From NCBI RefSeq assembly GCF_000009705.1, contig NC_003272.1:2520001-2552000 (forward strand): DNA of 32,000 nt, written 5' to 3'. Position numbers and translations under genes: made by a program. Shown piece after piece: positions 111 to 32,000 of the stretch. This DNA is from Nostoc sp. PCC 7120 = FACHB-418. GTDB lineage: Bacteria; Cyanobacteriota; Cyanobacteriia; Cyanobacteriales; Nostocaceae. The first letter of the stretch is position 1; each line of letters starts with the position of its first letter. The notes under the pieces are model-generated. The model made no database searches, was not told where the DNA came from, and saw only the letters and a program-made list of their open reading frames with translations.

Positions 111-1289
111 TCATCCTCGTAGATACTTGCAAGCAGCGTAAGCCATAGTTACTACTCCTGTGACGATCGCAGATTCATCGACTTCAAATTCAGGGTGATG
201 TAAGGGATGATTGATAATTCGCTCAGGGTAGCCTACACCTAAGCGAAACATTGAACCAGGGATGTGTTCTAAGTACACAGAAAAATCTTCTGCACCCAAA
301 GAAGGTTCGGGTAATACCTGGACGCGATCGCTTGTCCAAGCTTCTTCTCCTGCTGATTGAAACAACTGGGTAAGAGCATAATCATTGTAGACACCGGGGA
401 CACCTTGGCGATAATTAACTTGATAACGCGCCCCGTAAGAATGACAGACATTGGCAACGATTCTTTCAATCCAGTTGGGGAGTTGGGCGCGGGTTTCTGG
501 GTGGAGCGATCGCACTGTTCCCAACAACTGTACTTTATCAGCAATTACATTCGGCGCTCTCCCACCAGTAATTTTCCCAATGGTCAACACCACCGGACGT
601 AAGGGGTTCTGGGTACGGCTAATGGCTTGTTGCAAACTAGTAATCACCTGGGAAGCGATCCAAATGGCATCAATCGCCTCATGGGGACGCGCACCATGTC
701 CAGATTCACCAATAATCAAAATCTCTAAATCATCCGCCGCCGCCGTTAAAGCCCCATAACGCACTCCAATCGAGCCAGCCGGAATCGAAGGGAAAACATG
801 AATACCTAAAATAGCGGAAACATCCTTGATTGCCCCATCTGCCACCATCCAGCTTGCACCTTGAGCAATTTCTTCCGCAGGCTGGAATAAAAACCGCACA
901 TTTCCACTCAATTCCTCTGTCATTTGGGACAGTACCATTGCCGCCCCTAAACCTACTGTAGTGTGGATATCATGACCACAAGCGTGCATTATGCCATCCG
1001 TCCGTGAGGCATATTCTAAACCAGTACGTTCTTGAATAGGCAAGGCATCCATATCGGTGCGAATTGCCAAGAAACTATGATTTTCCTCAGTAACTTGTAA
1101 TTCACCAACTACACCAGTTTTACCAACACCTTCTTGTACACGCAGACCACTGGAAGATAAGACACCAGCCACAAAGGCAGCAGTTTGATATTCTTGACCA
1201 CTAAGTTCGGGATGAGAGTGGATGTGACGGCGAATTTCAATGAGGCGAGGCGCTAGTTTTGTGGCTAAGTCTTTAATAAGGGTGAGCAT
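111..1289 (-). CDS. M20D-family amidohydrolase (N-acyl-L-amino-acid amidohydrolase / hippurate-hydrolase-like metallopeptidase)
   Basis: ORF track 111..1436(-). The body carries M20D-like motifs: RRHIHSHPELSGQE, MHACGHD, FQPAEE, GESGHGARPHE. I moved the start to the ATG at 1287-1289 (MLTLIKDL...) because the 49 upstream codons are a read-through of heptamer repeats. Confidence 0.85.
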   Translation of the reverse strand: MLTLIKDLATKLAPRLIEIRRHIHSHPELSGQEYQTAAFVAGVLSSSGLRVQEGVGKTGVVGELQVTEENHSFLAIRTDMDALPIQERTGLEYASRTDGIMHACGHDIHTTVGLGAAMVLSQMTEELSGNVRFLFQPAEEIAQGASWMVADGAIKDVSAILGIHVFPSIPAGSIGVRYGALTAAADDLEILIIGESGHGARPHEAIDAIWIASQVITSLQQAISRTQNPLRPVVLTIGKITGGRAPNVIADKVQLLGTVRSLHPETRAQLPNWIERIVANVCHSYGARYQVNYRQGVPGVYNDYALTQLFQSAGEEAWTSDRVQVLPEPSLGAEDFSVYLEHIPGSMFRLGVGYPERIINHPLHHPEFEVDESAIVTGVVTMAYAACKYLRG

Positions 1290-6278: not shown

Positions 6279-6319
6279 CAATAAATCCTCCCGTTGCTAA
6301 CAAAAATAATTGAAATCAA

Positions 6320-6928
6320 CTAGTCAGTGATTGCCTTCATTAGCACATCTGATAAATTAGTTATTTCTAATTCATCCAAAGTGATGGTGTCACAAATATC
6401 AAACTTAGCACCAACACTTTGCAGGTGATCATCCAAAGCTTTAAGAAACTTAGTCGCGTGGGAATCCGAACCTACTTGAATAATGGAAATTCTCAATTCA
6501 TTAGCACTTTCCACAAGATGAGTCGCTTTAATTATGACTTCACATACAGCTTGACTATCAACTGGTGCGCCATCTGTAATCACTAAGATGACTTCTCCTG
6601 CGGGCTTTGTTTTACCCAGAGATTTGCGTTGAAAGTAACTATTGATGGCATCCTGAAGTACGCCAACTAGATTTGTGGTTTCGCTGGGGGAATTTTCTGC
6701 AAATAACTGTTTAACTTTGGCCGAATTTACATAATCGTAACGCTGAAAAGTTTTAGAAAATAAATAGACAGTAATACCATCAGAATCGAACTCCTCACAT
6801 TTACGAGCTAAAGCAAAAGTCGATTCCTGTATGGCTTGCCATTTGCTATTTTCACTATTGCCATCTGGCTTGGCCATGCTGGCACTGTGGTCGATAACTA
6901 GGGTGTAATCACGATTTTCTAACATCAT
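6320..6928 (-). CDS. Cytoplasmic vWA (MIDAS) domain protein, paralog 2 of 3
   Basis: DHSASM, ETTNL and ITDGAPVD motifs. The start was chosen at the MMLENRDY methionine (6926-6928) by homology with paralog 3. The track ORF extends to 6940. Confidence 0.8.
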   Translation of the reverse strand: MMLENRDYTLVIDHSASMAKPDGNSENSKWQAIQESTFALARKCEEFDSDGITVYLFSKTFQRYDYVNSAKVKQLFAENSPSETTNLVGVLQDAINSYFQRKSLGKTKPAGEVILVITDGAPVDSQAVCEVIIKATHLVESANELRISIIQVGSDSHATKFLKALDDHLQSVGAKFDICDTITLDELEITNLSDVLMKAITD

Positions 6929-6946
6929 ATTCAGTTGCATGAATAA

Positions 6947-7552
6947 CTAATCAGTAATTGCATTCATTAACACATCTGCAAGACTCATGTCTTCTAAATC
7001 TTCCAGGGTGATGGTATCGCAAATATCGAATTTAGCACCAACGCTTTGTAATTGATCATCTAAAGCTTTGAGAAACTTAGTAGCTTGAGCATCTGAACCA
7101 ACTTGAATCATGGAGATACCCAATTCCTCGTCGCGTTCCATCTGGCGGGTAGCATGAATGATGGTTTCAAATACGGCTTTGCGGTCGTCTGGTTCGCCAT
7201 CAGTAATTACTAAAATTGTTTCGCCATTGGGTTTAGTTTTACCCGCAGCTTTGCGTTGAAAGTAGTTATTCAAGGCATCTTGCAGTACGCCTGCTAAGTT
7301 CGTTGTTCCGGCTGGGTCATTTTCTAAAAATATCTGGGCGACCTTAGCTGAGGTAACATCGTCGTAACGTTTAAATTTGCCAGAAAATAGATAAACAGTA
7401 ATGCCATCTGGGTCAAACTGTTCGCACTTCCTGGCTAAAGCTAGGGTTGACTCTTGGGCTATCTCCCATCTGCTTCTACCACCAGCTTGATCGGGGGTAG
7501 ACATACTACCACTTTTGTCGATGATTAGTGTGTAGTCGCGATCGCTCATCAT
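6947..7552 (-). CDS. Cytoplasmic vWA (MIDAS) domain protein, paralog 1 of 3 (operon-first)
   Basis: DKSGSM, GTTNL and ITDGEPDD motifs. There is no signal peptide. The protein is collinear with the other two over its full length. Confidence 0.85.
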   Translation of the reverse strand: MMSDRDYTLIIDKSGSMSTPDQAGGRSRWEIAQESTLALARKCEQFDPDGITVYLFSGKFKRYDDVTSAKVAQIFLENDPAGTTNLAGVLQDALNNYFQRKAAGKTKPNGETILVITDGEPDDRKAVFETIIHATRQMERDEELGISMIQVGSDAQATKFLKALDDQLQSVGAKFDICDTITLEDLEDMSLADVLMNAITD

Positions 7553-12453: not shown

Positions 12454-13326
12454 TTAAAGGGCTTCTAACCAAGTTTGTAAATCAGCCAAACTTGTAAAAT
12501 CTAATAAAGCTTCGCTCAAATCTTCGAGAATCGGTAGAGGTAGAGTGGAAATGTGCGATCGCATTTCTTGAGAAATTTCTCCAAACCGCTTATTTAGCAA
12601 TCGAATAACCAGATTCACAGCCTCTTGCTGTCTTCCTTCTTCACGCCCTTCTTCCCGTCCTTCTTCCCGTCCTTCTTCTTTAATCTCTCTATAAACTCTC
12701 GTTTCTTTAAGTGTAATTCCCAACATTTCTTCTACCTCTGTTTTACTTAATTTTTCAAACTTGTACACCATTATCGTTGTGATCATCTCTATTATGGCGC
12801 GGTTTGATGGTTGAGATGCTTGCTGTTGACTCCTTGTTAATAAATATCTAGCTTCCAAGGGTGCTTGTTCTTCATCTATCGTAGTTAAAACCATCAATGC
12901 TAACCATAAGGGCAAAGAGCGAATATCACCCAATTCATCTAAATACACTCGATGAACTTGGTTGCTGTTCAGTAATGCACGATGGGGATAAACATCGCTT
13001 TGTTCGGTATAGCGCGATGGATAAATGATTACCGCTTGCCAATCGCTAAATCTAGCACGGTTGTGGTAGAAGTATAACGTGGATTCTGCAAATACTCTTT
13101 CATAAAGCTGTTCATCTTTTTGGAACTGCACCTCACAGAAATACACAACACCAGGATTTTCGCTGTCTGGTGGTAAAAATACCCCATCGATTTCAAATTT
13201 TGGTTCTTTAACAGCTACCGAATCAAATCGATAAGACTCCGCATTTATAGGAGGATTTGTCAATAGTTCAAATAGTAAACTGGGAGATTGTTGGAATAGT
13301 TTATAAAATATAGAGTCTCGGCGCAT
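12454..13326 (-). CDS. Rpn-family recombination-promoting nuclease / putative transposase (PD-(D/E)XK N-terminus, DUF4351-type C-terminus)
   Basis: The N-terminus DSIFYKLFQQSPSLLFELL and the C-terminus LVIRLLNKRFGEISQEMRSHISTLPLPILEDLSEALLDFTSLADLQTWL are typical of the cyanobacterial expansion of this family. Confidence 0.85.
   Translation of the reverse strand: MRRDSIFYKLFQQSPSLLFELLTNPPINAESYRFDSVAVKEPKFEIDGVFLPPDSENPGVVYFCEVQFQKDEQLYERVFAESTLYFYHNRARFSDWQAVIIYPSRYTEQSDVYPHRALLNSNQVHRVYLDELGDIRSLPLWLALMVLTTIDEEQAPLEARYLLTRSQQQASQPSNRAIIEMITTIMVYKFEKLSKTEVEEMLGITLKETRVYREIKEEGREEGREEGREEGRQQEAVNLVIRLLNKRFGEISQEMRSHISTLPLPILEDLSEALLDFTSLADLQTWLEAL
12635..12682. repeat. In-frame 12-nt tandem repeat (CCTTCTTCCCGT-type, about 4 copies) encoding (EGRE)n inside the Rpn-family gene
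   Basis: Units at 12635, 12647, 12659 and 12671. The protein reads EEGREEGREEGREEGR. Confidence 0.85.
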
Positions 13327-21480: not shown

Positions 21481-22862
21481 TGTCAGATTTTAGCAATGAA
21501 TTGCATACACAGATTCAGTACAGTTTGATTGAGAAATTGTCTGAATCCGAACGGCGTTACCGGGAATTAGTGGATAGTCTGCGCGAAATTGTGTTTAAAT
21601 GCGATCGCTTGGGTAATCTCAATTTCCTCAACCGAGCCTGGACAAATACCCTTGGTTATGGGATAACAGATGCCATCGGTAGTGCTTTAAGCAATTTCAT
21701 TGACTTGGATGATCAGTACTTGTGGTCAGAAACTCTAGAAAAATTACAAACCGGAGTAGAGGTTTGTCAAAAACTCCGCTTTTACCATCAAACTGGTGCA
21801 ATTGTTTGGTTGGAACTATCTGCTCAACCTCAAAGTGAAACAGAATTCTCTGGCTCACTGATCAATATTACTGATGTCTACGACGAGCTTCGCTTACGCA
21901 AACACGCAGAAGGATTACTGAAGCAAACAAATGAGGAATTGGAAGCTAGGGTAGAACAACGAAATATTGAGCTAATTCAAGCTAATCACGACCTAAAAGT
22001 TACCCTTGATAAACTCAAATATACTCAGGCTCAACTGGTGCAAACTGAAAAAATGTCGAGTTTGGGGCAATTAGTTGCAGGGATTGCTCACGAAATTAAT
22101 AATCCAGTTAACTTTATTTATGCTAATCTCACCCATGCATCTGAATATACACAAGTCTTATTAAAAATCTTACAACTTTACCAGCAAACCTATCCAGTTC
22201 CCTCGCTGCACATTCAAAAAGCAATAGTAACCTGGGATTTGGACTTTATTAAAAAAGATTTGGGTAAGGTACTGGAGTCGATGCAAGTTGGCAGCGAACG
22301 CATTAGAGAAATTGTGCTGTTACTGCGAAATTTTTCTCGGTTGGATGAAGCAGAAATCAAAATTGTTGATATTCACGCAGGTATCAATCACACAATCACG
22401 TTTCTGCATCACCGCCTTCAAAATGAGTCTGCAAATAGGGTAATTCAAATAATTAAAAACTATGGATTAATTCCCCAGGTAAAGTGCTATCCCGCGCACC
22501 TAAATCAAGTATTCATGAATATTTTAAATAATGCAATTTATGCTTTAGACGAGAAAATTACTGATTTCTCAATTATTCACAGTCCTCAATCTCAACCCTT
22601 CGTTCCTACTATTTGGATTAAGACTGAGATCGTTGATGAAACTTGGCTTAATATTTGCATTAAAAACAATGGTGGGGGTATTCACGAATCGGTAATTTCC
22701 AAAATATTTGATCCGTTCTTTACAACAAAACCTGTTGGTAAGGGAACTGGACTTGGTTTATTTATTAGTTATCAGATTGTAGTAGAAATGCACCAAGGTA
22801 ACTTAATATGTAACTCCAAAACAAGCCAAGAAACGGAATTTTGCATCCAAATTCCCATCTAA
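21480..22862 (+). CDS. PAS-domain sensor histidine kinase (cytoplasmic, no receiver)
   Basis: PAS-like RYRELVDSLREIVFKCDRLGNLNFLNRAWTNTLGY, H-box GIAHEINNPVNF, N-box NILNNAIYAL, G1 IKNNGGGI, G2 GKGTGLGL. The ATG overlaps the upstream TAA (TAATG). Confidence 0.85.
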   Translation: MSDFSNELHTQIQYSLIEKLSESERRYRELVDSLREIVFKCDRLGNLNFLNRAWTNTLGYGITDAIGSALSNFIDLDDQYLWSETLEKLQTGVEVCQKLRFYHQTGAIVWLELSAQPQSETEFSGSLINITDVYDELRLRKHAEGLLKQTNEELEARVEQRNIELIQANHDLKVTLDKLKYTQAQLVQTEKMSSLGQLVAGIAHEINNPVNFIYANLTHASEYTQVLLKILQLYQQTYPVPSLHIQKAIVTWDLDFIKKDLGKVLESMQVGSERIREIVLLLRNFSRLDEAEIKIVDIHAGINHTITFLHHRLQNESANRVIQIIKNYGLIPQVKCYPAHLNQVFMNILNNAIYALDEKITDFSIIHSPQSQPFVPTIWIKTEIVDETWLNICIKNNGGGIHESVISKIFDPFFTTKPVGKGTGLGLFISYQIVVEMHQGNLICNSKTSQETEFCIQIPI

Positions 22863-23170
22863 TAGAACTATTGCCTTTAAAAGGTTGACTAATGCTTATG
22901 TCTTGTTTGCTATGCACCATTGTTTGATTAGCATATACGTGAAATGGCTTGTCGCTAGACCGCATCATCTCCGCCCAGGCCACAGCCTCACCATCCGGCG
23001 TATACACGACCTCACCCAACATCTCAATCACAATCCTGTTTTTCCTCGCCCACTCAAACCAAGCGAACGCTCCAGACCTAGCCTGAGCCTGTGTGGACTC
23101 CGGCTTCCTACCTTCCTTTCTGCGCCACCCTGCGGGTGCGGGTAGCCGCAAAGCGTCTAATGTGTGATAA

Positions 23171-23310
23171 ACATCATCCCAATATGGTTCGGATAAGCTC
23201 TTGAAGCAGAGGAGGTAGGGGAGGAAAGGAGGTTATTTTCATAATTTTTCTCTTCCCCTGCCTGCCTTAACCCAGAAATCCCTTAACCGAACCGTATTGG
23301 ACATCATCCC
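23171..23310. mobile_element. MITE-like element: 14-bp terminal inverted repeats (CCAATATGGTTCGG / CCGAACCGTATTGG, 1 mismatch) flanked by the direct repeat ACATCATCCC
   Basis: TIRs at 23179-23192 and 23287-23300. Direct repeats at 23171-23180 and 23301-23310. The interior is an imperfect purine/pyrimidine hairpin (AGGTAGGGGAGGA vs TCTTCCCCTGCCT). There is no coding capacity. Confidence 0.6.
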
Positions 23311-23335
23311 GCATTTATGCAACGTCGAATTTTGC

Positions 23336-26300
23336 TTAACTAGGACAGAGTTTCTGTTCGTTAGGCGTAACATTGGGATTGGTGTTGAGATAATCCTGTA
23401 GCCAGTTGCAAGCAGACATGACTAGAGTATTCATCTGGGAAGTTTTGGCTTGCTGGCTATCAAAACGCCAAATTTTGGTGGTAGTGTCTAAACTGCCGGA
23501 GATGAGAGTTTTACCATCTGGGCTGAAAATTGCACTCATGACTCCGGCTTGATGCTGGGGTAGGGTGGTTAACAGGTGACCATCAATTTGCCAAATTTTT
23601 ACTGTTTTATCTTCGCTGGCTGATGCAATGTAACGACCATCAGGAGAGAAGCTACTACTATAAACTACATTACTATGGCCTGAGAAAGTATGCAGTAGAT
23701 GACCGTCATGACTCCTCCAGAGTTTGACGGTTTTGTCGGCGCTAGTTGAGGCAAGCATACTACCATCAGGATTGAAGTTGACGCTGTATACTAAGTCATT
23801 ATGGGCTGGCAAACTTTTAATTAAGTTGCCGCTAAAACTGTCCCAGAGTCGGATAGTTTTGTCAGCACTAGCAGAGGCGATAATTTTACCATCGGGGCTA
23901 AAACTGACCCAAAATACTTCGTCTGTATGACCCTTGAGGGTTTTTTTAAATTTACCATCGCTCACATTCCAAAGTTTAACTGTGTTGTCCCGACTGGCGG
24001 AAGCGAGGGTTTTACCATCAGGGCTAAAATTTACTTTGTTGACTTCGTTGTCATGTCCTATGAGTGTTTTTAAAGCTTTACCATCCCTAACACGCCAAAT
24101 TTTCACAGTTTTATCGGCGTTGGCGCTAGCTATTAAATCACCTTGGGGTGTAAAACTAATACCATAAATTGCTTTGTTCCCTGGTAGGGTTTTTAGTAAA
24201 CTACCATCTTGACTGTGCCAAAGTTGAATATTGCCATCTGCACCGGCTGTAGCAATGATACTACCGTCATGCAGGAAACTGACCGCATAAACACCGCTAT
24301 TGCCGGCGAGAACTTCTAAGGGAGATATCAAGGGACGCTGCCAAAGTCTGATGGTGTTGTCTAAACTAGCGGAAGCGATGATGTTACTATCAGGAAGAAA
24401 ATTCACAGCATAAACACCACCGCTATGGCCTGTAAAGGTTTCTAGTTCGATGCCGTGACGGTTCCACAGTTTGATAGTGTTATCTCTACTAGCAGAGGCG
24501 ATCGCTTTACCATCTGAGCTAAAATTAACATCCCAAACTGAATCATTGTGACCTTTTAGGGTTTTGACCAATTTACCATCAGCGATGCGCCAAAGTTTGA
24601 TGGTTTTGTCCGCACTAGCGGAAGCGAGAGTTTTACCATCAGGGCTAAAACTGAGGCTATTTACCCAATCTTGATGTCCATTGAGGGTTTTTAATAATTT
24701 CCCATCCTGGCGATGCCACAGTTTAACGGTTTTATCTTCGCTACCGGCAGCAATAGTTTGACCATCAGGACTGAAACGCACGGTGATAACTCCAGCACTA
24801 TGACCAGTGAGGGTCATTAAGAGTTGACCAGATGTAGTATCCCACAACTTGATGCTGTGATCACTACTGGCAGAGGCGAGATTTTTACCATCTGGACTAA
24901 AATAGACATTATTGACTGTTTGCTCATGACCTGTGATGGTTTTGAGTAGGGTTCCATCACTGGTTTGCCAAAGTTTAATGGTTTTGTCACTCCCCCCGGA
25001 AGCAATGGTTTGACCGTCGGGAGAGAAACTGACACTATAAACAGCATCTTCATGTCCGTTGAGAGTTCTGAATAACCGACCGTCTCGACTCCAAAGTTTA
25101 ATAGTTTTATCTAAGCTACCAGAGGCGATAGTTTGACCATCCCGACTGATACTAATACTAATCACGCCGTCCTTATGTCCTTCTAGCCTGTTACGTTCCT
25201 GCATCTCAAACAAGGCTTGTTGTAAGGTAGTGACAGTTGCTAATTTGAGATTATTGGGAACTGCTATCACATGATTAACCTGTTGTGCAGCTTTGAGACT
25301 GGCAATAAGTGCTGCTAATTGTTGATGAGATAACAAATTTGCCTGGGATGAAGAATTTAACGCCGCAATTTCCCTAAATTGGGCTTCCCTACCTTGCCAA
25401 TAAGCTAAACCCCCAAAACTCACAGATGCAATACCTAAAACACTCAAGGCGACTACAGCCCTTTGTGCTTGTTTGAGGCGATTTTTTGCTTGTAATTGTT
25501 GATGCTTGCGTTCTGCTAAACAAGCGCCTATAAATTCTTGCACATCCGCCCCTAGTTCATCAGTCCAGTAAATATAAATGTCTTCGGCTTCCGCTAACCT
25601 AGCACCTTGTAACAAAAAGTCTGCTTGTTTGCCGCTTTGTTGCCACAACTGACAAGCATGATTAATTTGCCTTTGTTTACGCAAGCGATCGCGGTTTTCT
25701 TCTAACCACCAGCGCAAAGTTGACCAATGACGTATTAAAATTTCGTGGGCGACCTCTACTGTCACGAAGGGAGTGGAGAGATTAGGGGGAGTGGGAGAGA
25801 AACTTTTACCTTGTGCTTCTATCTCTGCTTCTAGGTTAATTACTACTAATTTGGCGTTAGTCAAAACATTGAGAGTTTGTTCTACTAACCCAGCCGGATA
25901 TTTTTTAACTATTAAATCTGACTTATATATGCGTCTTCTGGTATCTTCTGTACCTTCCCCTAACTGAGTTAATGAAAGAAAAATCCACTTCGCACATTCT
26001 TGTAGTTGTGGTGGTAAACTTTCATAAACCCCTTGACACGATCGCTCTAATGCTCCTTTAATTCCCCCTAGTTGTTCTTGATAGCTTTGTAGAGTTAATT
26101 TACCAGCCGTTCGTTGTTGCCATAACTGTTCTAAAACAAATTCCAGTAAAGGTAAATCCCCCACGGATTGATTTAACTCCCGTAACAGCACTTCCACCAG
26201 TTCCGCTTCCACCTGCAACCCTACCTGCTGTGCTGGGTGGAGAATCACCCGCCGATAATCATCCAAACTCAGTTTTGGGGGAACTAACACACTAGCTACC

Positions 26301-28387
26301 TGTAACGCCTCAGCTAAAGCTGGTACTTCCAAACAAGGAGCGATAAAATCAGCCCTTAAAGTAATAATTAATTTAAAGCGATCGCCTGCATACTGTACAG
26401 CCCCCAATAATAATTCTAGAAATAACTCCCTATCTGGTGTTGGCGCAAGGGTAAATAATTCCTCAAACTGGTCTATTACCAACACCGTCACCCCCTGGGG
26501 AAGGCTACGCAGCCAGTAAACAAAACCCTCCACTCCTTGATGTAACATTCCCTCAATCAAAAGATGGGTTTCTCCCCATTCCCCCAACTTCCTGGCTAAA
26601 GCCTCCAAAGGATTGACACCAGGACGAATAGTTTTTATCCCCCACTGTTCACTATTGGGGATGTGTTTCCCTTGTCGCAGTTGGGGAATAAGTCCAGCTT
26701 GCACTACGGAAGATTTACCACTACCAGAAGCGCCGATAACAGCGAGAAATGAATTATCCCGCAGATGATGAATTAACTGCTGGGTGACGGTTTCTCTCCC
26801 GTAAAAATAGGCTGCGTCTGCTTCCGCAAAAGCATTTAAACCCATGTAAGGACACACCCCTAAATCCAAACCGCTTGTCCGTTGGCTTTTGTGTGTGTTG
26901 TTAGTCAAAATTTCGATAATTCCCTGGGTTCCTGATAGCCAGACGTAGAGAGGGGTTTTACTATCCGCTAAAGATAATTGTAATTGAGCGATCGCTCCAG
27001 CCGCAGACAAACCATCTCCTTGAGCAGATGCAGTCAAGGTATCAAGGAATTTCTGGGCAAAATTTTCTGGTGCTTCTGGAGGTGAGGCGCAAGCAATTAA
27101 ACATTGTCCGTGATGAGATTCAATTTGTAAGTCTTCTATCCAATCCCCTAACGAAGCAGTCCCTAGCGGACAATCCAAGATAATTACCTGTTGGCTAGTG
27201 CATTGGCGTAACTGTTGTTTTAACCAGGAACGTTTGATGCAGATATCCTCTCCCAGTCGTAGCCATTCCCCAGCTTCGCTTTCCTCAATGCGTCCCCGCA
27301 GATATAACAAAGTTAATTCTGCTTGGGGTTGTTGCCAATGACGAGCGATCGCTGCTTTAATATCCTCAGATGATGTTTTAGTAGCTGGCAAATACTCAAC
27401 CGCAAAATCTCCCGTACTACCAAGAAGTTTACTAATATCTAAAGTAATTTTACTATTTGATAACCCCTCCACTACTATCCCCAAGCCACGATACACCCCT
27501 GGGGCGTTTTTCTCTAATCTTTTCCCTAAAATTAATTCCCCCACTCCCTCCACAATTCTTTTAGGAGTTTGCAAGGGATATTCATTATAAAGTTGCGTGT
27601 CACCCTTCCCCCGTTTCTGCTGATTAATTAGCCGTAATTGTTGATTAGTTTTATCGATATATTGCAGGGTTTGGTGATATACATAACGATATAAGCCATC
27701 CAAATAAATCAAGCCTTGACTATCTACCGCCTCGCCTTGCAAACCCCGTATCAAATAATATGTAAATACCCCATGTCCCAATTCGGGAAATTCCCAGGAT
27801 TGTTGGTTATTGTCACAAGAAAGTAAAGCATAAAAACCTTTACTCTTAGCCGCGCTTTGTTGTAGTAGCTCAACTAATTGCAGTGTTACTCCCCTAAGAG
27901 ACATTCCCCCACTATGACAAGCATCTAACCACACTAGCTGATTCTGTACCCCACTCTTACCCAAAATTTGCAATATTTCTTGTAAAGCTAAACCTGTATT
28001 TTGCAAATTTGATTTTTGCGTATCTACCAAACATAAAAATACTTCTTGTGTCGTGGGATCTACTACCCCGTGACCAGAAAAATAAAATAAAATCGTATCA
28101 ATGGGGGATACATGAGACGTGATATCTCGTAGGCTATGACGGACGTTAGTTAAAGATGGTGGTTGTGGTGCAAAGTCGTGATACACGTTGACAATCTTTT
28201 GGGTAAATTGAGTAGCTGCTTCAGTTAACGCCTCAGATAAACCCTGACAATCTATGGCTGAGTAATTCAGGTTGGGTAGGTATTCGTCCTGATATTGATT
28301 TACTCCCACCATCACTAACCACAACTTGGGGACGTTGGTTTGTTTGGTATGAGTTGTACGGCTGGTGGAAAGACCAATTGGTGGCAT
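23336..28387 (-). CDS. Caspase-like (peptidase C14, orthocaspase) protease fused to a STAND P-loop NTPase and 14 WD40 repeats
   Basis: His-Cys dyad: FYFSGHG (His codon 28070-28072) and WLDACHSGG (Cys codon 27917-27919). Lead-in motif [21 protein letters not shown]. Walker [10 protein letters not shown] (Lys codon 26714-26716). Walker [12 protein letters not shown] counted 14 units of the x-GH-x...SFSPDG...AS(A/G)S.DKT(I/V)KLW type. Confidence 0.9.
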
Positions 28388-28440
28388 TTTTTACACAAAA
28401 GTAGCTTGGATAATGGGTAATTATAGAACTTACGCACTCA

Positions 28441-28489
28441 AGTTGACAGTTGACAGTTGACAGTTAACGGTTAACCGTCAACTGTTTAC
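28441..28489. repeat. Heptamer array AGTTGAC x3 degenerating into AGTTAAC / GGTTAAC / CGTCAAC / TGTTTAC; contains the 12-nt palindrome ACGGTTAACCGT
   Basis: Read directly with 7-nt periodicity over seven units. Confidence 0.85.
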
Positions 28490-28602
28490 TCTTGGTGTTA
28501 TGCAAAGATTGTTCCTAAAAGCAATGTGATCGTCATTCAATTAATCAATATTCAACATTTATAAATAGAAATCAATCATCCTAAAATCTATTTCTTATGG
28601 CT

Positions 28603-28618
28603 TATTCCTTAAGGAATA
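28603..28618. promoter_or_regulatory. Perfect 16-bp palindrome TATTCCTTAAGGAATA
   Basis: Verified base by base. It sits in the 0.58-kb divergent intergenic region between the caspase-STAND gene and the PEP-CTERM-like gene. It is a candidate dimeric regulator site. Confidence 0.3.
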
Positions 28619-28867
28619 GACTTTAGATATAGTCAAGAATAGCAAGTAAACCCGCTAATTTATTCTCTGCTGAAAGTGATATAAAAATGTCAAAACGTAA
28701 CGTTATGTAGCGCGTTGTTTTTTTTTGAAAAAAATAACTTATATTACTAGATAGTCAAGCAATTATCATAGTTAAGACTCTTCATCAAAGAAGGGAACAA
28801 AAGACCCCTGCAACTAAGCATTAACAGTTTCAGGTGCGCTCTAAATACCCTTTTTTCTTATTTGCTG

Positions 28868-28902
28868 CTGTTCCCTGTTGACTATTGCCTGTTCCCTGTT
28901 CC
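28868..28902. repeat. Heptamer array CTGTTCC-type, 5 imperfect copies
   Basis: CTGTTCC at 28868, 28889 and 28896, with degenerate units between. Confidence 0.7.
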
Positions 28903-28970
28903 CTCTTTATATAGTCGTTGATTTAATGTAATTGCTTGGTATTAACAACTGCATTAAAGACTTTTTGATC

Positions 28971-29705
28971 ATGTTTACAACTAATAAATTGACCAGAACT
29001 TTTGCTTGTGCATCGGTAACACTTGGTGTTGCGATTGGTGCAAGTATGTCTGCTTCTCCCGTTCAGGCTGGAACTCTTAACTGGAATGACGGAACTAGCA
29101 ACTTTTTTGAACAGGTAAGTCCTGTTCTTGGGGATACTTTTTCCGTCACTTTCTCTCCTGCATCACTTGGAGGATTTGCGTCGATTTTTCAAGCCAATGG
29201 TGAGTTTGCATCAGCTTTCTCCTCAATTCCGCCAAACCCTCCTGTGTTTCGCTCAATCCTGCCACCAGACTCTGCGGTGGGAAACTTTTTGTATGCGGGT
29301 ACTAGTGGCGCTAAGTTCATATACGAACTCACTAATGATTTAGTGTTTCAGTTCGATGCGGACAATAATGGTGCTTTTGATCCGCTTCAAGATGTGAGCG
29401 TGAAATATGCAAAAGACTCTAAATTTCTCGGTACTTTTGCTGGTGGAGGTGTGGCATTTGAGTTAGATTGGAAGGCTCCGGCTTCAGTGATTAGCATTCA
29501 GGGAGTCAATTACAATCCAAGTCGACTTCAATTAGGCTTTCAGGATCTTCCAGGAGGACAAGGAGGGGGATATAGCGGTGTAGCCCAAGTCTCTACTCCC
29601 GAATCTGGTTCTATTCTGGGGTTTATCGCCCTTGCTGGTTTAGGACTTGTATCTAAGGTCAGAAAAGAGAAAACACAGTCACTGGCGTGTGCAAGACACC
29701 AGTAA
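28971..29705 (+). CDS. Secreted protein with a PEP-CTERM-like sorting tail (P-E-S variant)
   Basis: Signal peptide MFTTNKLTRTFACASVTLGVAIGASMSASPVQA. The C-terminus is TPESGSILGFIALAGLGLVSKVRKEK: a PEx motif, a hydrophobic helix and a basic cluster. I prefer the ATG at 28971 over the TTG at 28932. Confidence 0.7.
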   Translation: MFTTNKLTRTFACASVTLGVAIGASMSASPVQAGTLNWNDGTSNFFEQVSPVLGDTFSVTFSPASLGGFASIFQANGEFASAFSSIPPNPPVFRSILPPDSAVGNFLYAGTSGAKFIYELTNDLVFQFDADNNGAFDPLQDVSVKYAKDSKFLGTFAGGGVAFELDWKAPASVISIQGVNYNPSRLQLGFQDLPGGQGGGYSGVAQVSTPESGSILGFIALAGLGLVSKVRKEKTQSLACARHQ

Positions 29706-29738
29706 CTGTTTCGTTAACTAAGTGTGACTAAAAGTTAG

Positions 29739-29761
29739 AGCTAGCAAGCATCTAGCTTTTA
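29739..29761 (+). terminator. Candidate intrinsic terminator AGCTAG-CAAGCAT-CTAGCT followed by TTTTA
   Basis: 6-bp stem, 7-nt loop and a T-run, starting 34 nt after the PEP-CTERM-like stop. Confidence 0.4.
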
Positions 29762-29872
29762 GCCAACTATATACCTAAGTCATGATAACACTTTCAAGAG
29801 TTGGCAAGGACATAATTATGTACCCCTATCTCTTGATATTTTTCCATAATTTTTGTAAAGCAGATATGGCTA

Positions 29873-29898
29873 TAGGGACGTACAAAAGTACGTCCCTA
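29873..29898. repeat. Perfect hairpin TAGGGACGTAC-AAAA-GTACGTCCCTA
   Basis: 11-bp stem verified. It lies between convergent genes with no U-tract on either side. Confidence 0.6.
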
Positions 29899-29940
29899 CT
29901 AAGATGATCTGTCCTTGCTTTAATTTGCACATATTTTTGT

Positions 29941-29967
29941 GTTGACAGTTGACTGTTAACTGTCAAC
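29941..29967. repeat. GTTGACN heptamers x4 forming a 10-bp inverted repeat (GTTGACAGTT / AACTGTCAAC) that overlaps the stop codon of the 332-aa gene
   Basis: Read directly. It belongs to the same heptamer family as 28441-28489. Confidence 0.75.
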
Positions 29968-30961
29968 TTCTCATTAAAATAAGTTTGTGTGGCAAATCAT
30001 TCCAAGACAGTGAATCTTGGACAATTTCCTGACGAAAATCTAACCAACCTTGCTCATTGCATAAAGCCAACAAATCATGAATTATTGTGTACCAAAGCAG
30101 AGGTGTATCAGCACGTCCCTGAGCAAGAAACTGAGCAGCTTGTGTGAGAAAAGTAGTGATATCTTGCTCCACAAACGCGTGTTTGATGGAAAACCAAGCA
30201 TAGGAACGTGAGTAGCGAGATTTGTCAGAGTGAACTGGTAACTGTAAATAATCTGCCGCAATTGTTAACAAATTAGCTGCTTGATTGCGGTCTTTATCTG
30301 CCAAAATTAGGGCAACTTCACTGGTAATTTGGGCAAACATAGCAGAGACAAACTCAGGCGGCTGGCGTGCTATGCGTTCAAAACCCCAAGGATGGGGAGT
30401 AGGTAAAGTCTGCAATTGTCCATCAAGATAGGCAAGAAGTTGAGCAGCAAGTGCGATCGCTCCTGTAAAATTTAATTGTCGTGCTTCTGTCCGCACCAAA
30501 TTATGTAACAGTTGGATACGCTGCATCAGGAGAATATCATAACCATATTCTTCCTCTAAAACCGCACTTAATCTTAAAGCCTCTTCAGTGCGACTGTAAA
30601 CTTGGTCAAAATCCTGATGACAATAATCGAGATAGGCTGCTGATTGCTCTAAAAATGACTGATGTAATAGCTTGGACTCCCGCGACAGTGTAGCCATTTG
30701 CAAAGGCTTACGCGCTTCCTCAAATAACTGCGCGGCTGTTGTTAGTTGGCGGTGGCGAGCCGCTACCATCCCTTGACTACGAGCATTACTATAGCGACGC
30801 AGTAATAATTGTTCTTGTAATGGTAAACGTTTCGCCATCAAAGCTTCTAGTTTTTCGCTAAATAAATCACCACTACCTGTGGGTAAATCCATAGTTGCAG
30901 TACACCCCTGGCGATAACTTTCTGTGATTTGTGTTAGGAGTTGACTGGAAGTATCAAGCAT
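29963..30961 (-). CDS. Hypothetical all-helical 332-aa protein, translationally coupled to the radical SAM/SPASM gene
   Basis: Its ATG (30959-30961) overlaps the upstream TGA (30954-30956), reading ATGCTTGA. It is Leu/Gln/Ala-rich and I found no recognisable catalytic motif. Confidence 0.7.
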   Translation of the reverse strand: MLDTSSQLLTQITESYRQGCTATMDLPTGSGDLFSEKLEALMAKRLPLQEQLLLRRYSNARSQGMVAARHRQLTTAAQLFEEARKPLQMATLSRESKLLHQSFLEQSAAYLDYCHQDFDQVYSRTEEALRLSAVLEEEYGYDILLMQRIQLLHNLVRTEARQLNFTGAIALAAQLLAYLDGQLQTLPTPHPWGFERIARQPPEFVSAMFAQITSEVALILADKDRNQAANLLTIAADYLQLPVHSDKSRYSRSYAWFSIKHAFVEQDITTFLTQAAQFLAQGRADTPLLWYTIIHDLLALCNEQGWLDFRQEIVQDSLSWNDLPHKLILMRS

Positions 30962-32000
30962 AAACTAAAGCCTCCTGGTTAGCTTCTGCTTCTTCAATCC
31001 GAGATAACGCATAGGTAAGTAATAAACGTTGCTCAATGTTATGTTTAGCACTGGGGCATGGTTCAATACCTTCTAACCAACTCTTTGGACAAGAACCACC
31101 GCAAACAGGTAACATAGGGCAAGTAGAACAGGGGTATGAACCTTGACGCACTTTATCATTAAAACTAGCTAAACGTTCCCTGTTACCAGGCATCTGTTTA
31201 CCTGATAAATGATCAATGGCATATTCATTAGGTGTGCCGTATGTAGGGACATAAGATACTTCTGTACAATTAAAAATATTGCCATAGGCATCAACTAATT
31301 CCGAATGGGGCATTACAGCCATACAAACTAGAGGTTTGCGCTCTGGTAATAACCCAACATTGAAACCTAACTCAACCATTTCCCCAAACCAAGTTATTTC
31401 CCAATTAGCAAATTCTTCTTTAGATAGGGAACGAGTATGAGCATCATTGCCCCAAGAATGAATTGGTGCTACATAAAAACTAATCTTGTCTTGTATCTCT
31501 ACCTCAGCTAACTTTTGTAGTAACAAAGAGACAGATTCATAATTTTGATAGTCAACATTACAACGAATATTAATTTGCACATCCAAATCTTGTCGATGAG
31601 CTAGGGCTGTAACATTAGCAAAAATTTTATCAAAAGTAGGTAAGCCATTTTTCTGCATCCGTCGAGCATCATGATATTCACCTACACCATCAAGAGTAAT
31701 TTCAATAGAATTTACGCCTAATTCTTGAACAATTTCTGTTGCTACTTGATGTGTTAGAGCTAAACCGTTGGTGACAATTTTTGCATGATAACTACAACCA
31801 AAACTGGCTGCAAGAGACTGTAGTTTTGGCGTGAGAGTTCTCATCACTGGCAACCCTACCAAAGGTTCTGCACCAAACCAACTAATTGAGAGACTACGAA
31901 AGTTCTTGCTTGCGAGTTTTTTAGCAGCCCGTTCTATAAATTTTTGCTGCTCATCTTCAGTCATCATTTTGCTAGTATGTTCTTGACCGCAGTAATGACA
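30954..32000 (-). CDS. Radical SAM/SPASM-domain enzyme (anSME / peptide-maturase-like), 5-prime end outside the window
   Basis: The frame stays open to base 32000. The last in-window codons read C-H-Y-C-G-Q-E-H-T-S-K-M-M, which is the end of a CxxxCxxC motif. The C-terminal SPASM-type cluster is YPCSTCPMLPVCGGSCPKSW, followed by EPCPS. Confidence 0.85.
   Translation of the reverse strand, partial: CHYCGQEHTSKMMTEDEQQKFIERAAKKLASKNFRSLSISWFGAEPLVGLPVMRTLTPKLQSLAASFGCSYHAKIVTNGLALTHQVATEIVQELGVNSIEITLDGVGEYHDARRMQKNGLPTFDKIFANVTALAHRQDLDVQINIRCNVDYQNYESVSLLLQKLAEVEIQDKISFYVAPIHSWGNDAHTRSLSKEEFANWEITWFGEMVELGFNVGLLPERKPLVCMAVMPHSELVDAYGNIFNCTEVSYVPTYGTPNEYAIDHLSGKQMPGNRERLASFNDKVRQGSYPCSTCPMLPVCGGSCPKSWLEGIEPCPSAKHNIEQRLLLTYALSRIEEAEANQEALVYA

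What the first reader, a model, noticed from the sequence alone, without database searches (positions are those of the whole stretch)
23336..28387. 1683-aa caspase-like protease / STAND NTPase / 14xWD40 protein: an NLR- or apoptosome-style single-gene switch
One ORF combines three parts. The first is a peptidase-C14 fold with an intact His-Cys dyad (FYFSGHG and WLDACHSGG). The second is a P-loop STAND NTPase (CPYMGLNAF...FYGRE lead-in, Walker [10 protein letters not shown], Walker [11 protein letters not shown]). The third is 14 WD40 blades. Effector protease plus nucleotide-driven switch plus repeat sensor is the logic of apoptosomes, eukaryotic NLRs and bacterial Avs/bNACHT antiphage proteins. 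Cyanobacterial orthocaspases are linked to cell death, but as far as I know no trigger or substrate is defined for a protein of this full architecture. The gene has no operon partners. It is bracketed by a MITE-like element on one side and a repeat-laden 0.58-kb AT-rich spacer on the other, which fits an accessory or variable locus.
Basis: partly seen in the sequence, partly recalled or inferred. Interest (0 to 1): 0.72.

Follow-up and report, generated by a model that had tools for sequence, protein, structure and literature searches.

The report
Membrane-spanning caspase–STAND–WD40 protein All2124
This is the uncharacterised gene all2124 of the model cyanobacterium Nostoc/Anabaena PCC 7120, a caspase-like protease fused to an ATP-driven switch and a WD40 sensor; the design is already catalogued, and the sensor most likely sits outside the cytoplasm, so the protein resembles a death receptor more than an apoptosome.

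Summary
Window 23336-28387 (-) is one 1683-aa ORF with a Peptidase_C14 domain (H106 and C157 invariant), an nSTAND1 NTPase (Walker A K558) and 14 WD40 blades.

The protein is identical to All2124 of Nostoc sp. PCC 7120. Its Anabaena variabilis ortholog, Ava_0039, is already listed in a 2020 review as p20-AAA_16-TM-WD40. I found no functional study of either.

- Residues 977-997 form a conserved transmembrane helix. It obeys the positive-inside rule, and the roughly 690 residues after it are almost free of cysteine apart from one invariant C-terminal Cys pair. This places the WD40 propellers outside the cytoplasm.
- Residues 296-505 are a second caspase-fold domain without the catalytic dyad, a pseudo-caspase.
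- The protein is one member of a large cyanobacterial caspase-nSTAND1-TM-repeat family.

The gene evolves under purifying selection (dN/dS 0.16, with the WD40 region no different from the rest). It has no EACC1-type partner gene. The MITE-like element and the repeat-laden spacer are real.

Verdict: a known kind of protein in a model organism, better read as a transmembrane receptor-protease than as a cytosolic NLR. Interest is moderate to low.

The parts
23336..28387 (-). Whole ORF, 1683 aa plus stop. Identical to All2124 of Nostoc sp. PCC 7120 (BAB73823.1).
27512..28336 (-). Active caspase-fold (orthocaspase, Peptidase_C14) domain, aa 18-292. The catalytic His106 codon is at 28070-28072 and the Cys157 codon at 27917-27919.
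   Evidence: Pfam E 2.3e-14. H106 and C157 are invariant. The AF2 model of aa 1-520 has pLDDT 81.8. Foldseek top hits are MALT1, metacaspases and caspase-9. His aligns to the HYSGHG motif of AtMC4.
26873..27502 (-). Second caspase-fold domain lacking the dyad (pseudo-caspase), aa 296-505. R366 stands in place of the catalytic His and P407 in place of the catalytic Cys.
   Evidence: hhalign against the first domain gives probability 87.9%, E 3.3e-6, 156 colinear columns. AF2 of the domain alone gives pLDDT 89, pTM 0.88. Foldseek PDB ranks 1-23 are all caspases or metacaspase-9. Only 87 representative clusters in 1.84 billion proteins match, and where enough protein precedes the match it starts at about residue 300.
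25622..26851 (-). nSTAND1 STAND NTPase, aa 513-922. Walker A GASGSGKS is at 26711-26734 (K558). Walker B LVIDQFEE starts at aa 636.
   Evidence: Pfam nSTAND1 E 2.6e-121 over 378 of 379 profile positions. Motif positions.
25460..25621 (-). Basic juxtamembrane linker, aa 923-976. Mean identity among orthologs is 75%.
   Evidence: K+R-rich N-terminal flank of the helix.
25397..25459 (-). Predicted transmembrane helix, aa 977-997 ([21 protein letters not shown]), rich in small residues.
   Evidence: Kyte-Doolittle 2.06, the highest in the protein. A hydrophobic 19-mer sits at Walker A +380..480 in 79 of 86 nSTAND1 homologs, against 4 of 344 control windows, and the N-flank has more K+R than the C-flank in 74 of 79. 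It aligns in all 47 orthologs, with KD >=1.5 in 45 of 47 and 72% mean identity to the query.
25205..25396 (-). Linker after the transmembrane helix, aa 998-1061.
   Evidence: Mean identity 51%.
23465..25204 (-). 14 WD40 blades, aa 1062-1641, enough for two 7-bladed propellers. The array contains no cysteine.
   Evidence: Pfam WD40 with 14 stretches. Blade boundaries. Blade-to-blade identity averages 48%, maximum 67%. Cys counts.
23336..23464 (-). C-terminal tail, aa 1642-1683, plus stop codon. It carries the only two Cys after the TM helix (C1660, C1681).
   Evidence: Both Cys are conserved in 47 of 47 orthologs, and exactly two post-TM Cys occur in 41 of 47.
23171..23310 (.). MITE-like element. 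Terminal inverted repeats lie at 23179-23197 and 23282-23300, flanked by 10-bp direct repeats ACATCATCCC. It starts 26 bp downstream of the stop codon.
   Evidence: The TIR pattern gives 2 hits in the window against 0.02 expected. Related copies on two Nostoc plasmids.
22960..23118 (-). Remnant of a multi-copy 127-aa hypothetical gene of Nostocales plasmids. Only the C-terminal 53 codons remain, 85% identical.
28388..28970 (.). AT-rich upstream spacer. It contains an (AGTTGAC)n tandem and palindromic repeat at 28441-28490, CTGTTCC-type repeats at 28868-28907, and a promoter-like CTGTCA-18-TATAAT site at 28420-28449 on the minus strand.
   Evidence: The promoter-like match is not above chance. 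No minus-strand ORF longer than 40 aa lies here, so there is no EACC1-like partner.

Best explanation
All2124 is a single-pass membrane receptor-protease with its N-terminus in the cytoplasm and its C-terminus outside.

The cytoplasmic part holds three domains: an active orthocaspase, a tandem dyad-less pseudo-caspase, and an nSTAND1 NTPase. One transmembrane helix follows. Two WD40 propellers, with a tail that probably carries a disulfide, lie in the periplasm or possibly the thylakoid lumen.

Proposed mechanism (inferred, not shown):
1. An extracytoplasmic ligand binds the propellers.
2. This releases or clusters the receptor, and the small-residue-rich TM helices pack together.
3. nSTAND1 oligomerises in an NTP-dependent way on the cytoplasmic face.
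4. The caspase domains are activated by induced proximity. The pseudo-caspase serves as a built-in partner or regulator.
5. The protease cuts itself and/or unknown cytoplasmic substrates. An acidic S1 pocket (D46, D155, D192) makes cleavage after Arg/Lys likely.
6. The result is growth arrest or cell death of the conflict-system (abortive-infection or altruistic) type.

Shown here: the domain identities, the intact dyad, the dead second caspase fold, and the conserved hydrophobic helix with its charge and cysteine asymmetry. Inferred: the topology itself, the ligand, oligomerisation, the substrates and the biological outcome.
For: -
- The TM helix has the highest hydropathy in the protein.
- A helix at the same position is present in 79 of 86 nSTAND1 homologs, whether the C-terminal repeats are WD40, pentapeptide or TPR, against 4 of 344 control windows.
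- Mean K+R in the N-flank is 4.59 against 2.48 in the C-flank, with N greater than C in 74 of 79.
- The helix aligns in all 47 full-length orthologs at 72% mean identity to the query, about the same as the catalytic domains.
- Cys frequency is 1.30% before the helix and 0.31% after it. The WD40 array is Cys-free, and exactly two Cys, both invariant, sit in the C-terminal tail in 41 of 47 orthologs.
- The wider family shows the same trend: 1.32% against 0.52%, with even post-TM Cys counts in 59 of 66.
- Single-pass kinases with predicted periplasmic WD40 arrays are a precedent (PMC11032199).
- The same topology was proposed for the ortholog Ava_0039 (PMC7475262).
- A caspase-like protease fused to a STAND sensor has been shown to act as a phage-triggered death switch, KrAvs12-EACC1 (PMC12642450).
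- Basic P1 specificity of orthocaspases and metacaspases is described in PMC5756287.
Against: - No topology predictor or experiment was available. The case rests on hydropathy, charge bias and cysteine statistics.
- A STAND NTPase whose sensor lies across a membrane has no experimentally characterised precedent that I found.
- No substrate or partner gene is evident.
- PADLOC recognises no known defence system here.
- Purifying selection on the WD40 region (dN/dS 0.13 and 0.23) and wide conservation fit a conserved, possibly endogenous, ligand rather than an arms race with phages.
- The caspase type that NCBIfam associates with EACC1 scores 129.8, below its 140 cut-off. The one characterised member of that type cleaves next to Asp, so Arg/Lys specificity is not certain.
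Confidence: 0.55

Rival explanations
1. The receptor-protease architecture is the same, but the role is physiological signalling rather than immunity or cell death. The protein would sense envelope or periplasmic state, filament integrity, development, or a conserved endogenous ligand.
For: - dN/dS is 0.16 overall and no higher in the WD40 halves.
- Full-length homologs occur in at least 46 other species representatives, all with an intact dyad.
- The locus is syntenic with A. variabilis: ABA19665 and ABA19667 bracket one gene.
- The same caspase plus pseudo-caspase module is fused to the tetrapyrrole-binding GUN4 domain in many roughly 720-aa paralogs, which suggests a metabolic input.
- The surrounding genes are housekeeping types.
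- PADLOC finds no defence system.
Against: - nSTAND1 and caspase fusions are placed in counter-invader conflict systems that are enriched in multicellular bacteria (PMC8195603 and PMC7159879).
- The WD40 halves are the fastest-evolving large domains at genus level, at 50-55% identity against 73% for the enzymatic domains. Positional blade orthology is lost beyond the closest species.
- A second STAND gene (EAD4-NACHT-HEAT) lies about 4.6 kb upstream.
Confidence: 0.25
2. This is the first reader's model: a fully cytosolic NLR-, apoptosome- or Avs-like switch. The hydrophobic segment at aa 977-997 would be a buried or oligomerisation helix, and the WD40 propellers would bind a cytoplasmic (for example phage) protein and autoinhibit the NTPase.
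For: - Every experimentally characterised STAND death switch that I know of (Apaf-1, NLRs, Avs, bNACHT) uses a cytosolic sensor; this rests on my own knowledge.
- The domain order effector-NTPase-repeats is the same.
- Hydropathy alone can mispredict TM helices; Asplund-Samuelsson et al. cite 77-78% topology accuracy for TMHMM.
Against: - The hydrophobic segment is conserved in position across WD40-, pentapeptide- and TPR-bearing homologs and has a strong positive-inside bias.
- The post-helix part shows roughly four-fold Cys depletion and one invariant Cys pair.
- No Avs, bNACHT or NB-ARC model matches above threshold.
Confidence: 0.12
3. The protein is a non-catalytic scaffold or relic. The caspase domain would be no longer active and the WD40 array would merely be a membrane-anchored interaction platform.
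For: No activity data exist. One of the two caspase folds is clearly dead.
Against: H106, C157, the Walker motifs and many pocket residues are invariant across homologs. dN/dS is 0.10 in the caspase domain.
Confidence: 0.05

Closest known systems
Ava_0039 / Ava_3079-type cyanobacterial orthocaspases (p20-AAA_16-TM-WD40), catalogued in Bhattacharjee & Mishra 2020 (PMC7475262) and Asplund-Samuelsson et al. 2012 (PMC3501461)
   Same: Ava_0039 (ABA19665.1) falls in the same 90%-identity cluster as this protein. The domain order is the same, and a TM helix with an 'extracellular WD40' was already proposed.
   Different: Those surveys are purely in silico. In the passages I read they call the NTPase AAA_16 or NACHT rather than a STAND clade, and I found no mention of a second (pseudo) caspase domain or of the C-terminal Cys pair.
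nSTAND1-centred conflict systems (Kaur et al. 2021, PMC8195603; Kaur et al. 2020, PMC7159879)
   Same: The NTPase clade is the same (Pfam nSTAND1, E 2.6e-121). An N-terminal caspase is one of the listed effectors. The systems are enriched in multicellular bacteria.
   Different: The nSTAND1 proteins described there carry FGS/C-type-lectin sensors, often diversified by DGRs, or sit in two-gene EACC1 systems. This protein has WD40 repeats, no DGR and no EACC1 gene. The passages I read do not mention a TM helix between NTPase and sensor.
KrAvs12-EACC1 protease-effector module (Evans et al. 2025 preprint, PMC12642450) and Avs/bNACHT antiviral STANDs
   Same: A caspase-like protease is fused N-terminally to a STAND sensor. 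The catalytic Cys is needed for triggered toxicity in KrAvs12. The caspase here scores 129.8 bits on NCBIfam 'caspase, EACC1-associated type'.
   Different: That score is below the 140-bit cut-off. No upstream EACC1 gene exists. No PADLOC Avs or bNACHT model matches. The sensor here is predicted to be extracytoplasmic, whereas KrAvs12 is reported to be activated by a phage tail connector protein.
Apaf-1 apoptosome / caspase-9
   Same: The logic of NTPase plus two WD40 propellers plus caspase activation by induced proximity is shared (general knowledge; PMC7159879).
   Different: Apaf-1 has an AP-ATPase (NB-ARC) domain and recruits its caspase through CARD. It is cytosolic and senses cytochrome c with its propellers. 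Here the NTPase is nSTAND1, the caspase is fused, and a membrane lies between the NTPase and the propellers.
Death-receptor pathway with the caspase-8/cFLIP(L) heterodimer; MALT1 paracaspase
   Same: An outside-in signal across a single-pass membrane protein would activate a caspase. An active caspase fold is paired with a catalytically dead one. MALT1 is the best structural match of the N-terminal module, and a caspase-8:c-FLIP(L) complex chain is among the matches of the pseudo-domain (rank 26).
   Different: This is an analogy only. There is no sequence relationship beyond the caspase fold, no death domains, and everything is on one polypeptide. The packing of the two domains could not be inspected because no model coordinates were returned.
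Single-pass Ser/Thr kinases with periplasmic WD40 or TPR arrays (Planctomycetota and others; PMC11032199)
   Same: The output domain is cytoplasmic, followed by one TM helix and a long C-terminal WD40 array predicted to be periplasmic.
   Different: The output there is a kinase, not a STAND-gated protease.
MaOC1 orthocaspase of Microcystis aeruginosa (Klemencic et al. 2015, as summarised in PMC5756287)
   Same: Same peptidase family, with a His-Cys dyad. Basic P1 specificity is expected from an acidic pocket.
   Different: In the passages I read, MaOC1 is the only biochemically characterised orthocaspase and is not described with an NTPase or a WD40 array. All2124's own activity is untested.

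Membership tests
Peptidase C14 (orthocaspase/metacaspase-like) | Pfam Peptidase_C14 match above the gathering score | tested here: met
   54.1 bits against a cut-off of 21.4, aa 25-220.
Peptidase C14 (orthocaspase/metacaspase-like) | Caspase-hemoglobinase fold | tested here: met
   AF2 model pLDDT 81.8. Foldseek PDB top hits are MALT1, metacaspases and caspase-9, E down to 1.8e-9.
Peptidase C14 (orthocaspase/metacaspase-like) | His-Cys catalytic dyad at the canonical positions | tested here: met
   H106 and C157 are invariant in 56 sequences and present in 47 of 47 orthologs. H106 aligns to the HYSGHG motif of AtMC4.
Peptidase C14 (orthocaspase/metacaspase-like) | Proteolytic activity and P1 specificity | not testable with these tools
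   Arg/Lys preference is inferred only, from conserved D46, D155 and D192 and the family literature.
Pseudo-caspase (second domain, aa 296-505) | Caspase fold without the catalytic His and Cys | tested here: met
   hhalign probability 87.9%, E 3.3e-6, with H106 aligned to R366 and C157 to P407. The stand-alone model has pLDDT 89. Foldseek ranks 1-23 are caspases or metacaspase-9.
STAND NTPase, nSTAND1 clade | Pfam nSTAND1 match plus Walker A and B motifs | tested here: met
   406 bits against a cut-off of 27.1, covering profile positions 1-378 of 379. GASGSGKS with K558, and LVIDQFEE at 636.
STAND NTPase, nSTAND1 clade | C-terminal superstructure-forming repeats | tested here: met
   14 WD40 blades. 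Paralogs carry pentapeptide or TPR repeats.
STAND NTPase, nSTAND1 clade | NTP-dependent oligomerisation on ligand binding | not testable with these tools
   No experiment or multimer model was available.
Avs / bNACHT antiphage STAND systems | Match to PADLOC defence-system models | tested here: not met
   Only the generic 'caspase' model (PDLC02987), HEAT-ARM_XIII on the WD40 part, and a 21-residue P-loop hit to mad3 were found.
Avs / bNACHT antiphage STAND systems | Cytosolic sensor domain contiguous with the NTPase | tested here: not met
   A conserved TM helix with positive-inside bias and post-helix Cys depletion separates the two. This is a prediction, not an experiment.
EACC1-caspase two-gene system | Small EACC1 gene immediately 5' of the caspase gene | tested here: not met
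   No minus-strand ORF longer than 40 aa lies in the 544-583 bp upstream spacer. The next gene is divergent.
EACC1-caspase two-gene system | NCBIfam NF047832 (caspase, EACC1-associated type) above cut-off | tested here: not met
   129.8 bits against a cut-off of 140.
Apoptosome-type AP-ATPase (Apaf-1/CED-4) | NB-ARC NTPase domain and CARD adaptor | tested here: not met
   No NB-ARC or CARD match was found in the Pfam scans of aa 1-511 and 513-1072 at E<=0.1.
Hypervariable WD40 sensors of the fungal HET-E/NWD type | Near-identical internal repeats with diversifying selection or repeat shuffling | tested here: not met
   Blade-to-blade identity averages 48%, maximum 67%. All 14 blades are positionally orthologous in the 95% relative. 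WD40 dN/dS is 0.13 and 0.23. Loss of positional signal at genus level cannot be told apart from saturation.
Bitopic N-in/C-out membrane protein | One hydrophobic helix of about 20 residues, positive-inside charge bias, and signatures of an oxidising compartment after it | tested here: met
   The experimental topology was not testable.
MITE | Short non-coding element with terminal inverted repeats and a target-site duplication | tested here: met
   122 bp, 19-nt TIRs (89%), 10-bp perfect direct repeats.
MITE | Many dispersed copies in the genome | tested here: inconclusive
   There is one copy in the window and none in the 57 other loci. Two related plasmid hits were found, at 69.6% over the whole element and 96.9% over one TIR. 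The host chromosome could not be scanned.

The most novel reading that the evidence does not exclude
All2124-type proteins may be transmembrane STAND 'death receptors', a prokaryotic counterpart of extrinsic apoptosis. On this reading a disulfide-stabilised double WD40 propeller sits in the periplasm. From my own knowledge, the periplasm is reported to be continuous along Anabaena filaments. The propeller would detect a danger or infection cue coming from outside or from neighbouring cells. The signal would cross the membrane through a conserved small-residue TM helix and drive nSTAND1 oligomerisation. That would fire a fused pair of active caspase and pseudo-caspase, analogous to caspase-8/cFLIP. 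This would be the first STAND NTPase shown to be gated from across a membrane.
Probability: 0.3. Interest if true: 0.7.

Novelty: already known. Interest (0 to 1): 0.35.

Why it matters
The caspase-STAND-WD40 design in cyanobacteria has been cited for years as a bacterial root of apoptosis and innate-immunity machinery, yet I found no experimental study of a member with this architecture. This copy sits in PCC 7120, which from my own knowledge is genetically tractable, so point mutants (H106A, C157A, K558A, TM and Cys-pair mutants) are feasible.

Three observations sharpen what to test. The sensor is probably extracytoplasmic. The protease comes with a built-in dead caspase partner. No adjacent effector gene is apparent. 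Trigger searches should therefore look in the periplasm or lumen rather than among cytosolic phage proteins. If the topology is confirmed, STAND signalling would extend to outside-in transmembrane receptors.

As a genome-scan finding, however, it is a re-discovery of a catalogued protein family.

Tried and rejected
- **BLASTP of aa 1-295 against 296-512.** It found nothing significant. Only profile-profile comparison and structure prediction revealed the second caspase fold.
- **EACC1-like or other small partner ORF upstream.** None was found. PADLOC, NCBIfam and Pfam scans of the neighbours gave no effector candidate.
- **Hypervariable, arms-race WD40 sensor.** Rejected at short range. Identity to the N. 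parmelioides ortholog is 93-95% in the WD40 halves, as in the rest of the protein. dN/dS is 0.13-0.23.
- **Concerted evolution of blades.** Not supported. Blades are 48% identical on average, and all 14 are positionally orthologous in the closest relative.
- **First repeat scan of the downstream spacer** (seed 8, minimum 12). It found nothing, and the spacer is single-copy among the held loci. A laxer scan then found the TIRs and direct repeats, so I withdrew my provisional rejection of the MITE claim.
- **The 128-aa ORF at 22765-23151 (-) as a possible downstream partner.** Rejected. It is a 53-codon remnant of a multi-copy plasmid gene fused to read-through sequence, and it overlaps the histidine-kinase gene.
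- **Rfam scan of 22000-30000.** No match. Promoter and terminator scans were not above chance.
- **Literature search for all2124.** It appears only as a BLAST label in unrelated eukaryote genome papers.
- **The search for homologous proteins.** Every listed hit was under 1000 aa, so full-length relatives did not appear. I recovered them from genome contigs instead.
- **Sequence-only PDB search.** It gave only a weak metacaspase-4 hit.
- **Model coordinates.** None were returned, so the packing of the two caspase folds could not be examined.

Full report
- Peptidase_C14 at aa 25-220 (E 2.3e-14, above the gathering score).
- nSTAND1 at aa 513-922 (E 2.6e-121, covering 378 of 379 profile positions).
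- 14 WD40 repeats (E 1.4e-167), which I delimited at aa 1062-1641.

In an alignment with 55 homologs, H106, C157 and the surrounding FYFSGHG and LDACHSG motifs are invariant. A profile search of PDB sequences aligns the His motif with HYSGHG of Arabidopsis metacaspase-4. An AlphaFold2 model of aa 1-520 (pLDDT 81.8, pTM 0.78) matches MALT1 paracaspase, metacaspases and caspase-9 best.

**2. Identity of the gene.** The exact protein is All2124 of Nostoc (Anabaena) sp. PCC 7120 (BAB73823.1, 'Uncharacterized WD repeat-containing protein all2124'). It is also present in Anabaena sp. FACHB-709. The A. variabilis ATCC 29413 protein ABA19665.1 falls in the same 90%-identity cluster. A full-text search finds all2124 only as a BLAST label in unrelated eukaryote papers. 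I take ABA19665.1 to be Ava_0039, the locus tag that appears in one review of cyanobacterial orthocaspases; that mapping was not checked directly here.

The most hydrophobic 19-mer of the protein (Kyte-Doolittle 2.06) lies at aa 977-997, between the NTPase and the WD40 array. Several results argue that this is not chance:
- Among nSTAND1 homologs long enough to judge, 79 of 86 have a 19-mer with KD >=1.6 at 380-480 residues after Walker A. This holds whether their C-terminal repeats are WD40, pentapeptide or TPR. Only 4 of 344 control windows inside the NTPase reach that value.
- The 15 residues before the helix carry on average 4.59 Lys+Arg, against 2.48 after it. The N-flank is richer in 74 of 79 cases. 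This is the positive-inside pattern of an N-in/C-out signal anchor.
- In 47 full-length orthologs recovered from genome contigs (1633-1906 aa, all with an intact dyad), the helix aligns throughout. It is 72% identical to the query on average, about the same as the caspase (72.8%) and NTPase (73.7%) domains, and it is rich in small residues.
- Independently, Cys makes up 1.30% of residues before the helix but 0.31% after it. The 580-residue WD40 array has no Cys. In 41 of 47 orthologs the post-helix part has exactly two Cys, both in the C-terminal tail and both conserved in 47 of 47 (C1660 and C1681). The wider family shows the same depletion (1.32% against 0.52%) and mostly even counts.

Together these point to cytoplasmic caspase and NTPase domains and extracytoplasmic WD40 propellers carrying one disulfide. 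I cannot tell whether the compartment is the periplasm or the thylakoid lumen. Predicted periplasmic WD40 arrays on single-pass kinases are a precedent (PMC11032199).

Residues 296-505 match no Pfam family, and BLASTP sees no similarity to the first domain. Profile-profile comparison, however, aligns them colinearly over 156 columns (probability 87.9%, E 3.3e-6). R366 stands opposite H106, and P407 opposite C157. Modelled alone, the region folds with pLDDT 89 and pTM 0.88. Its 23 best PDB matches are all caspases or metacaspase-9: caspase-11 at E 1.6e-6, then Dronc, caspase-9, and procaspases-3, -6 and -8. A scan of 1.84 billion representative proteins finds only 87 clusters with this domain. 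Where enough protein precedes the match, it starts at about residue 300, directly after a caspase-sized N-terminal region. The host proteins are about 700-860 aa or about 1200-1830 aa long. The roughly 510-aa caspase plus pseudo-caspase module is thus a constant unit. It is fused either to GUN4 or another small domain, or to nSTAND1-TM-repeats. I found no mention of a tandem arrangement in the orthocaspase papers I read. How the two folds pack could not be checked because no coordinates were returned.

**5. Partners and neighbourhood.** The gene is flanked by a convergent histidine-kinase gene and by a divergent gene. The product of the divergent gene has, by eye, a signal-peptide-like start and a PEP-CTERM-like end, with no HMM support. 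By orientation the gene is therefore monocistronic here. No EACC1-like small ORF lies upstream. The NCBIfam 'caspase, EACC1-associated type' model scores 129.8, below its 140 cut-off.

In four other Nostoc genomes a radical-SAM/SPASM RiPP-maturase gene lies directly upstream on the same strand, with a 332-aa gene of unknown function (all2126 here) between it and the caspase gene in at least two of them. In PCC 7120 the divergent gene is interposed between this pair and all2124. I treat this as conserved synteny of unknown meaning. About 4.6 kb beyond all2124's start, outside the window, lies a 958-aa EAD4-NACHT-HEAT-NCC-H gene, another STAND-type conflict gene. The rest of the window encodes ordinary metabolic and transport functions.

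**6. The flanks.**
- *Downstream spacer.* It contains a 122-bp element with 19-nt terminal inverted repeats (89%) and perfect 10-bp flanking direct repeats. The TIR pattern is far above chance in the window, and related sequences occur on two Nostoc plasmids. 'MITE-like' is a fair description, although I could not establish copy number. Next to it, 22960-23118 is a 53-codon remnant of a multi-copy 127-aa gene found on 22 Nostocales plasmids.
- *Upstream spacer.* It is 544-583 bp long and AT-rich (GC 0.36 in 28001-29000). It holds heptamer tandem and palindromic repeats.

So the flanks are indeed littered with repeats.

**7. Is it a variable, fast-evolving immune gene?** Only partly.
- The nearest other species (N. 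parmelioides FACHB-3921) has a 1692-aa ortholog. It is 95% identical in the caspase and NTPase domains and 93-95% in the WD40 halves.
- Nei-Gojobori dN/dS is 0.16 overall, and 0.13 and 0.23 in the two WD40 halves. This is purifying selection throughout.
- Blades within the protein are 48% identical on average, with a maximum of 67%. All 14 are positionally orthologous in that relative. There is therefore no concerted evolution of the fungal HET-E kind.
- At genus level the WD40 halves are the most diverged large domains, at 50-55% against about 73%. Positional blade correspondence is lost except for blades 1-2. This could reflect faster surface evolution, repeat turnover or simple saturation.
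- The gene family is widespread, with at least 46 other species representatives across Nostoc, Tolypothrix, Calothrix, Stigonema, Scytonema and a few Oscillatoriales. Synteny beyond the immediate upstream genes is not conserved.

**8. Mechanism.** I think the most likely reading is a bitopic receptor-protease. An extracytoplasmic ligand engages the propellers. The TM helices and nSTAND1 domains oligomerise with NTP. The fused caspase, with its pseudo-caspase partner, is then activated by proximity and cuts itself and/or unknown cytoplasmic targets.

Arg/Lys specificity is likely from the conserved acidic residues D46, D155 and D192 and from the family literature (PMC5756287). The one characterised EACC1-type bacterial caspase is proposed to cleave next to Asp49 (PMC12642450), so specificity is open.

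The biological output, immunity or cell death versus physiological signalling, is not decided by my data. Family context favours a conflict system (PMC7159879, PMC8195603). Purifying selection and the GUN4-fused paralogs keep a regulatory role alive.

**9. Comparison with what is known, and novelty.**
- Metacaspase-NTPase-WD40 proteins were catalogued in 2012 (PMC3501461).
- The 2020 review PMC7475262 names Ava_0039 among orthocaspases with p20, AAA_16, a TM helix and WD40. It proposes an extracellular WD40 and an 'extrinsic' death pathway.
- nSTAND1 with caspase effectors was defined in 2021.
- A caspase-STAND fusion (KrAvs12) has been shown to be a phage-triggered switch that cleaves EACC1 into a pore.

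The object is therefore already known as a kind, and this very ortholog group is already listed. To my knowledge the new details are the tandem pseudo-caspase, the invariant C-terminal Cys pair with a Cys-free propeller, and the family-wide quantitative support for the topology. These are refinements, not a new system. I score interest at 0.35. The more novel reading, a STAND NTPase gated from across the membrane as a bacterial 'death receptor', is not excluded, and I give it about 0.3.

Noticed in passing
L001 2490-5366 (about 4.6 kb beyond all2124's start, just outside the window's right end): A 958-aa EAD4-NACHT-HEAT_2-NCC-H protein, a second STAND conflict-system gene close to all2124. By the 'EAD principle', EAD4 implies a partner effector carrying the same adaptor elsewhere in the genome.
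   Followed up: partly
window 29963-30961 (-) and 30954-32000 (-, cut); L001 5566-7434: A radical-SAM/SPASM RiPP-maturase gene (best NCBIfam match TIGR04463, 201 bits, below cut-off), a 332-aa gene of unknown function (all2126) and a 112-aa ORF. In L006, L014, L022 and L051 the maturase gene lies directly upstream of the caspase-STAND homolog on the same strand, with the 332-aa gene between them in L006 and L022.
   Followed up: partly
window 22960-23118 (-): A 53-codon remnant (85% identical) of a 127-aa hypothetical gene. That gene occurs on 22 Nostocales plasmids, in up to 10 places on one plasmid. In Nostoc sp. HK-01 a copy also lies just downstream of a WD40-repeat gene.
   Followed up: partly
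window 28441-28490 and 28868-28907: Heptamer tandem repeats in the upstream spacer. (AGTTGAC)n forms a 25-nt-arm palindrome, and there are CTGTTCC-type repeats. They resemble the short tandemly repeated sequences I recall being common in heterocyst-forming cyanobacteria.
   Followed up: partly
window 5673-7552 (-): Three tandem paralogous genes of about 200 aa, each with a vWA / vWA-TerF-like domain.
   Followed up: no
window 28932-29705 (+): A divergent neighbour of 244-257 aa. By eye it has a signal-peptide-like N-terminus and a C-terminal 'PES + hydrophobic stretch + basic cluster' that looks like a PEP-CTERM anchor. It has no HMM match. In some other Nostoc genomes (L006, L022) the 332-aa gene runs almost up to the caspase-STAND gene, leaving no room for such a gene there.
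   Followed up: partly
L004, ortholog residues about 863-871 (window protein about aa 862): The N. parmelioides ortholog carries a 9-residue Ser-Pro-Ala repeat expansion (SPASPASPASPA...) in a loop of the C-terminal part of the nSTAND1 region. It is the only indel between the two proteins.
   Followed up: no
window 1463-2056 (-) and 12454-13326 (-): A Uma2-family restriction-endonuclease-like gene and a DUF2887/DUF4351 gene. From my own recollection both families are multi-copy in cyanobacterial genomes.
   Followed up: no
window 25397-25459 (-), aa 977-997: The TM helix sequence is conserved about as strongly as the catalytic domains and has a regular pattern of small residues (G/A/S every 3-4 positions). 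This suggests helix-helix packing rather than a passive anchor.
   Followed up: partly
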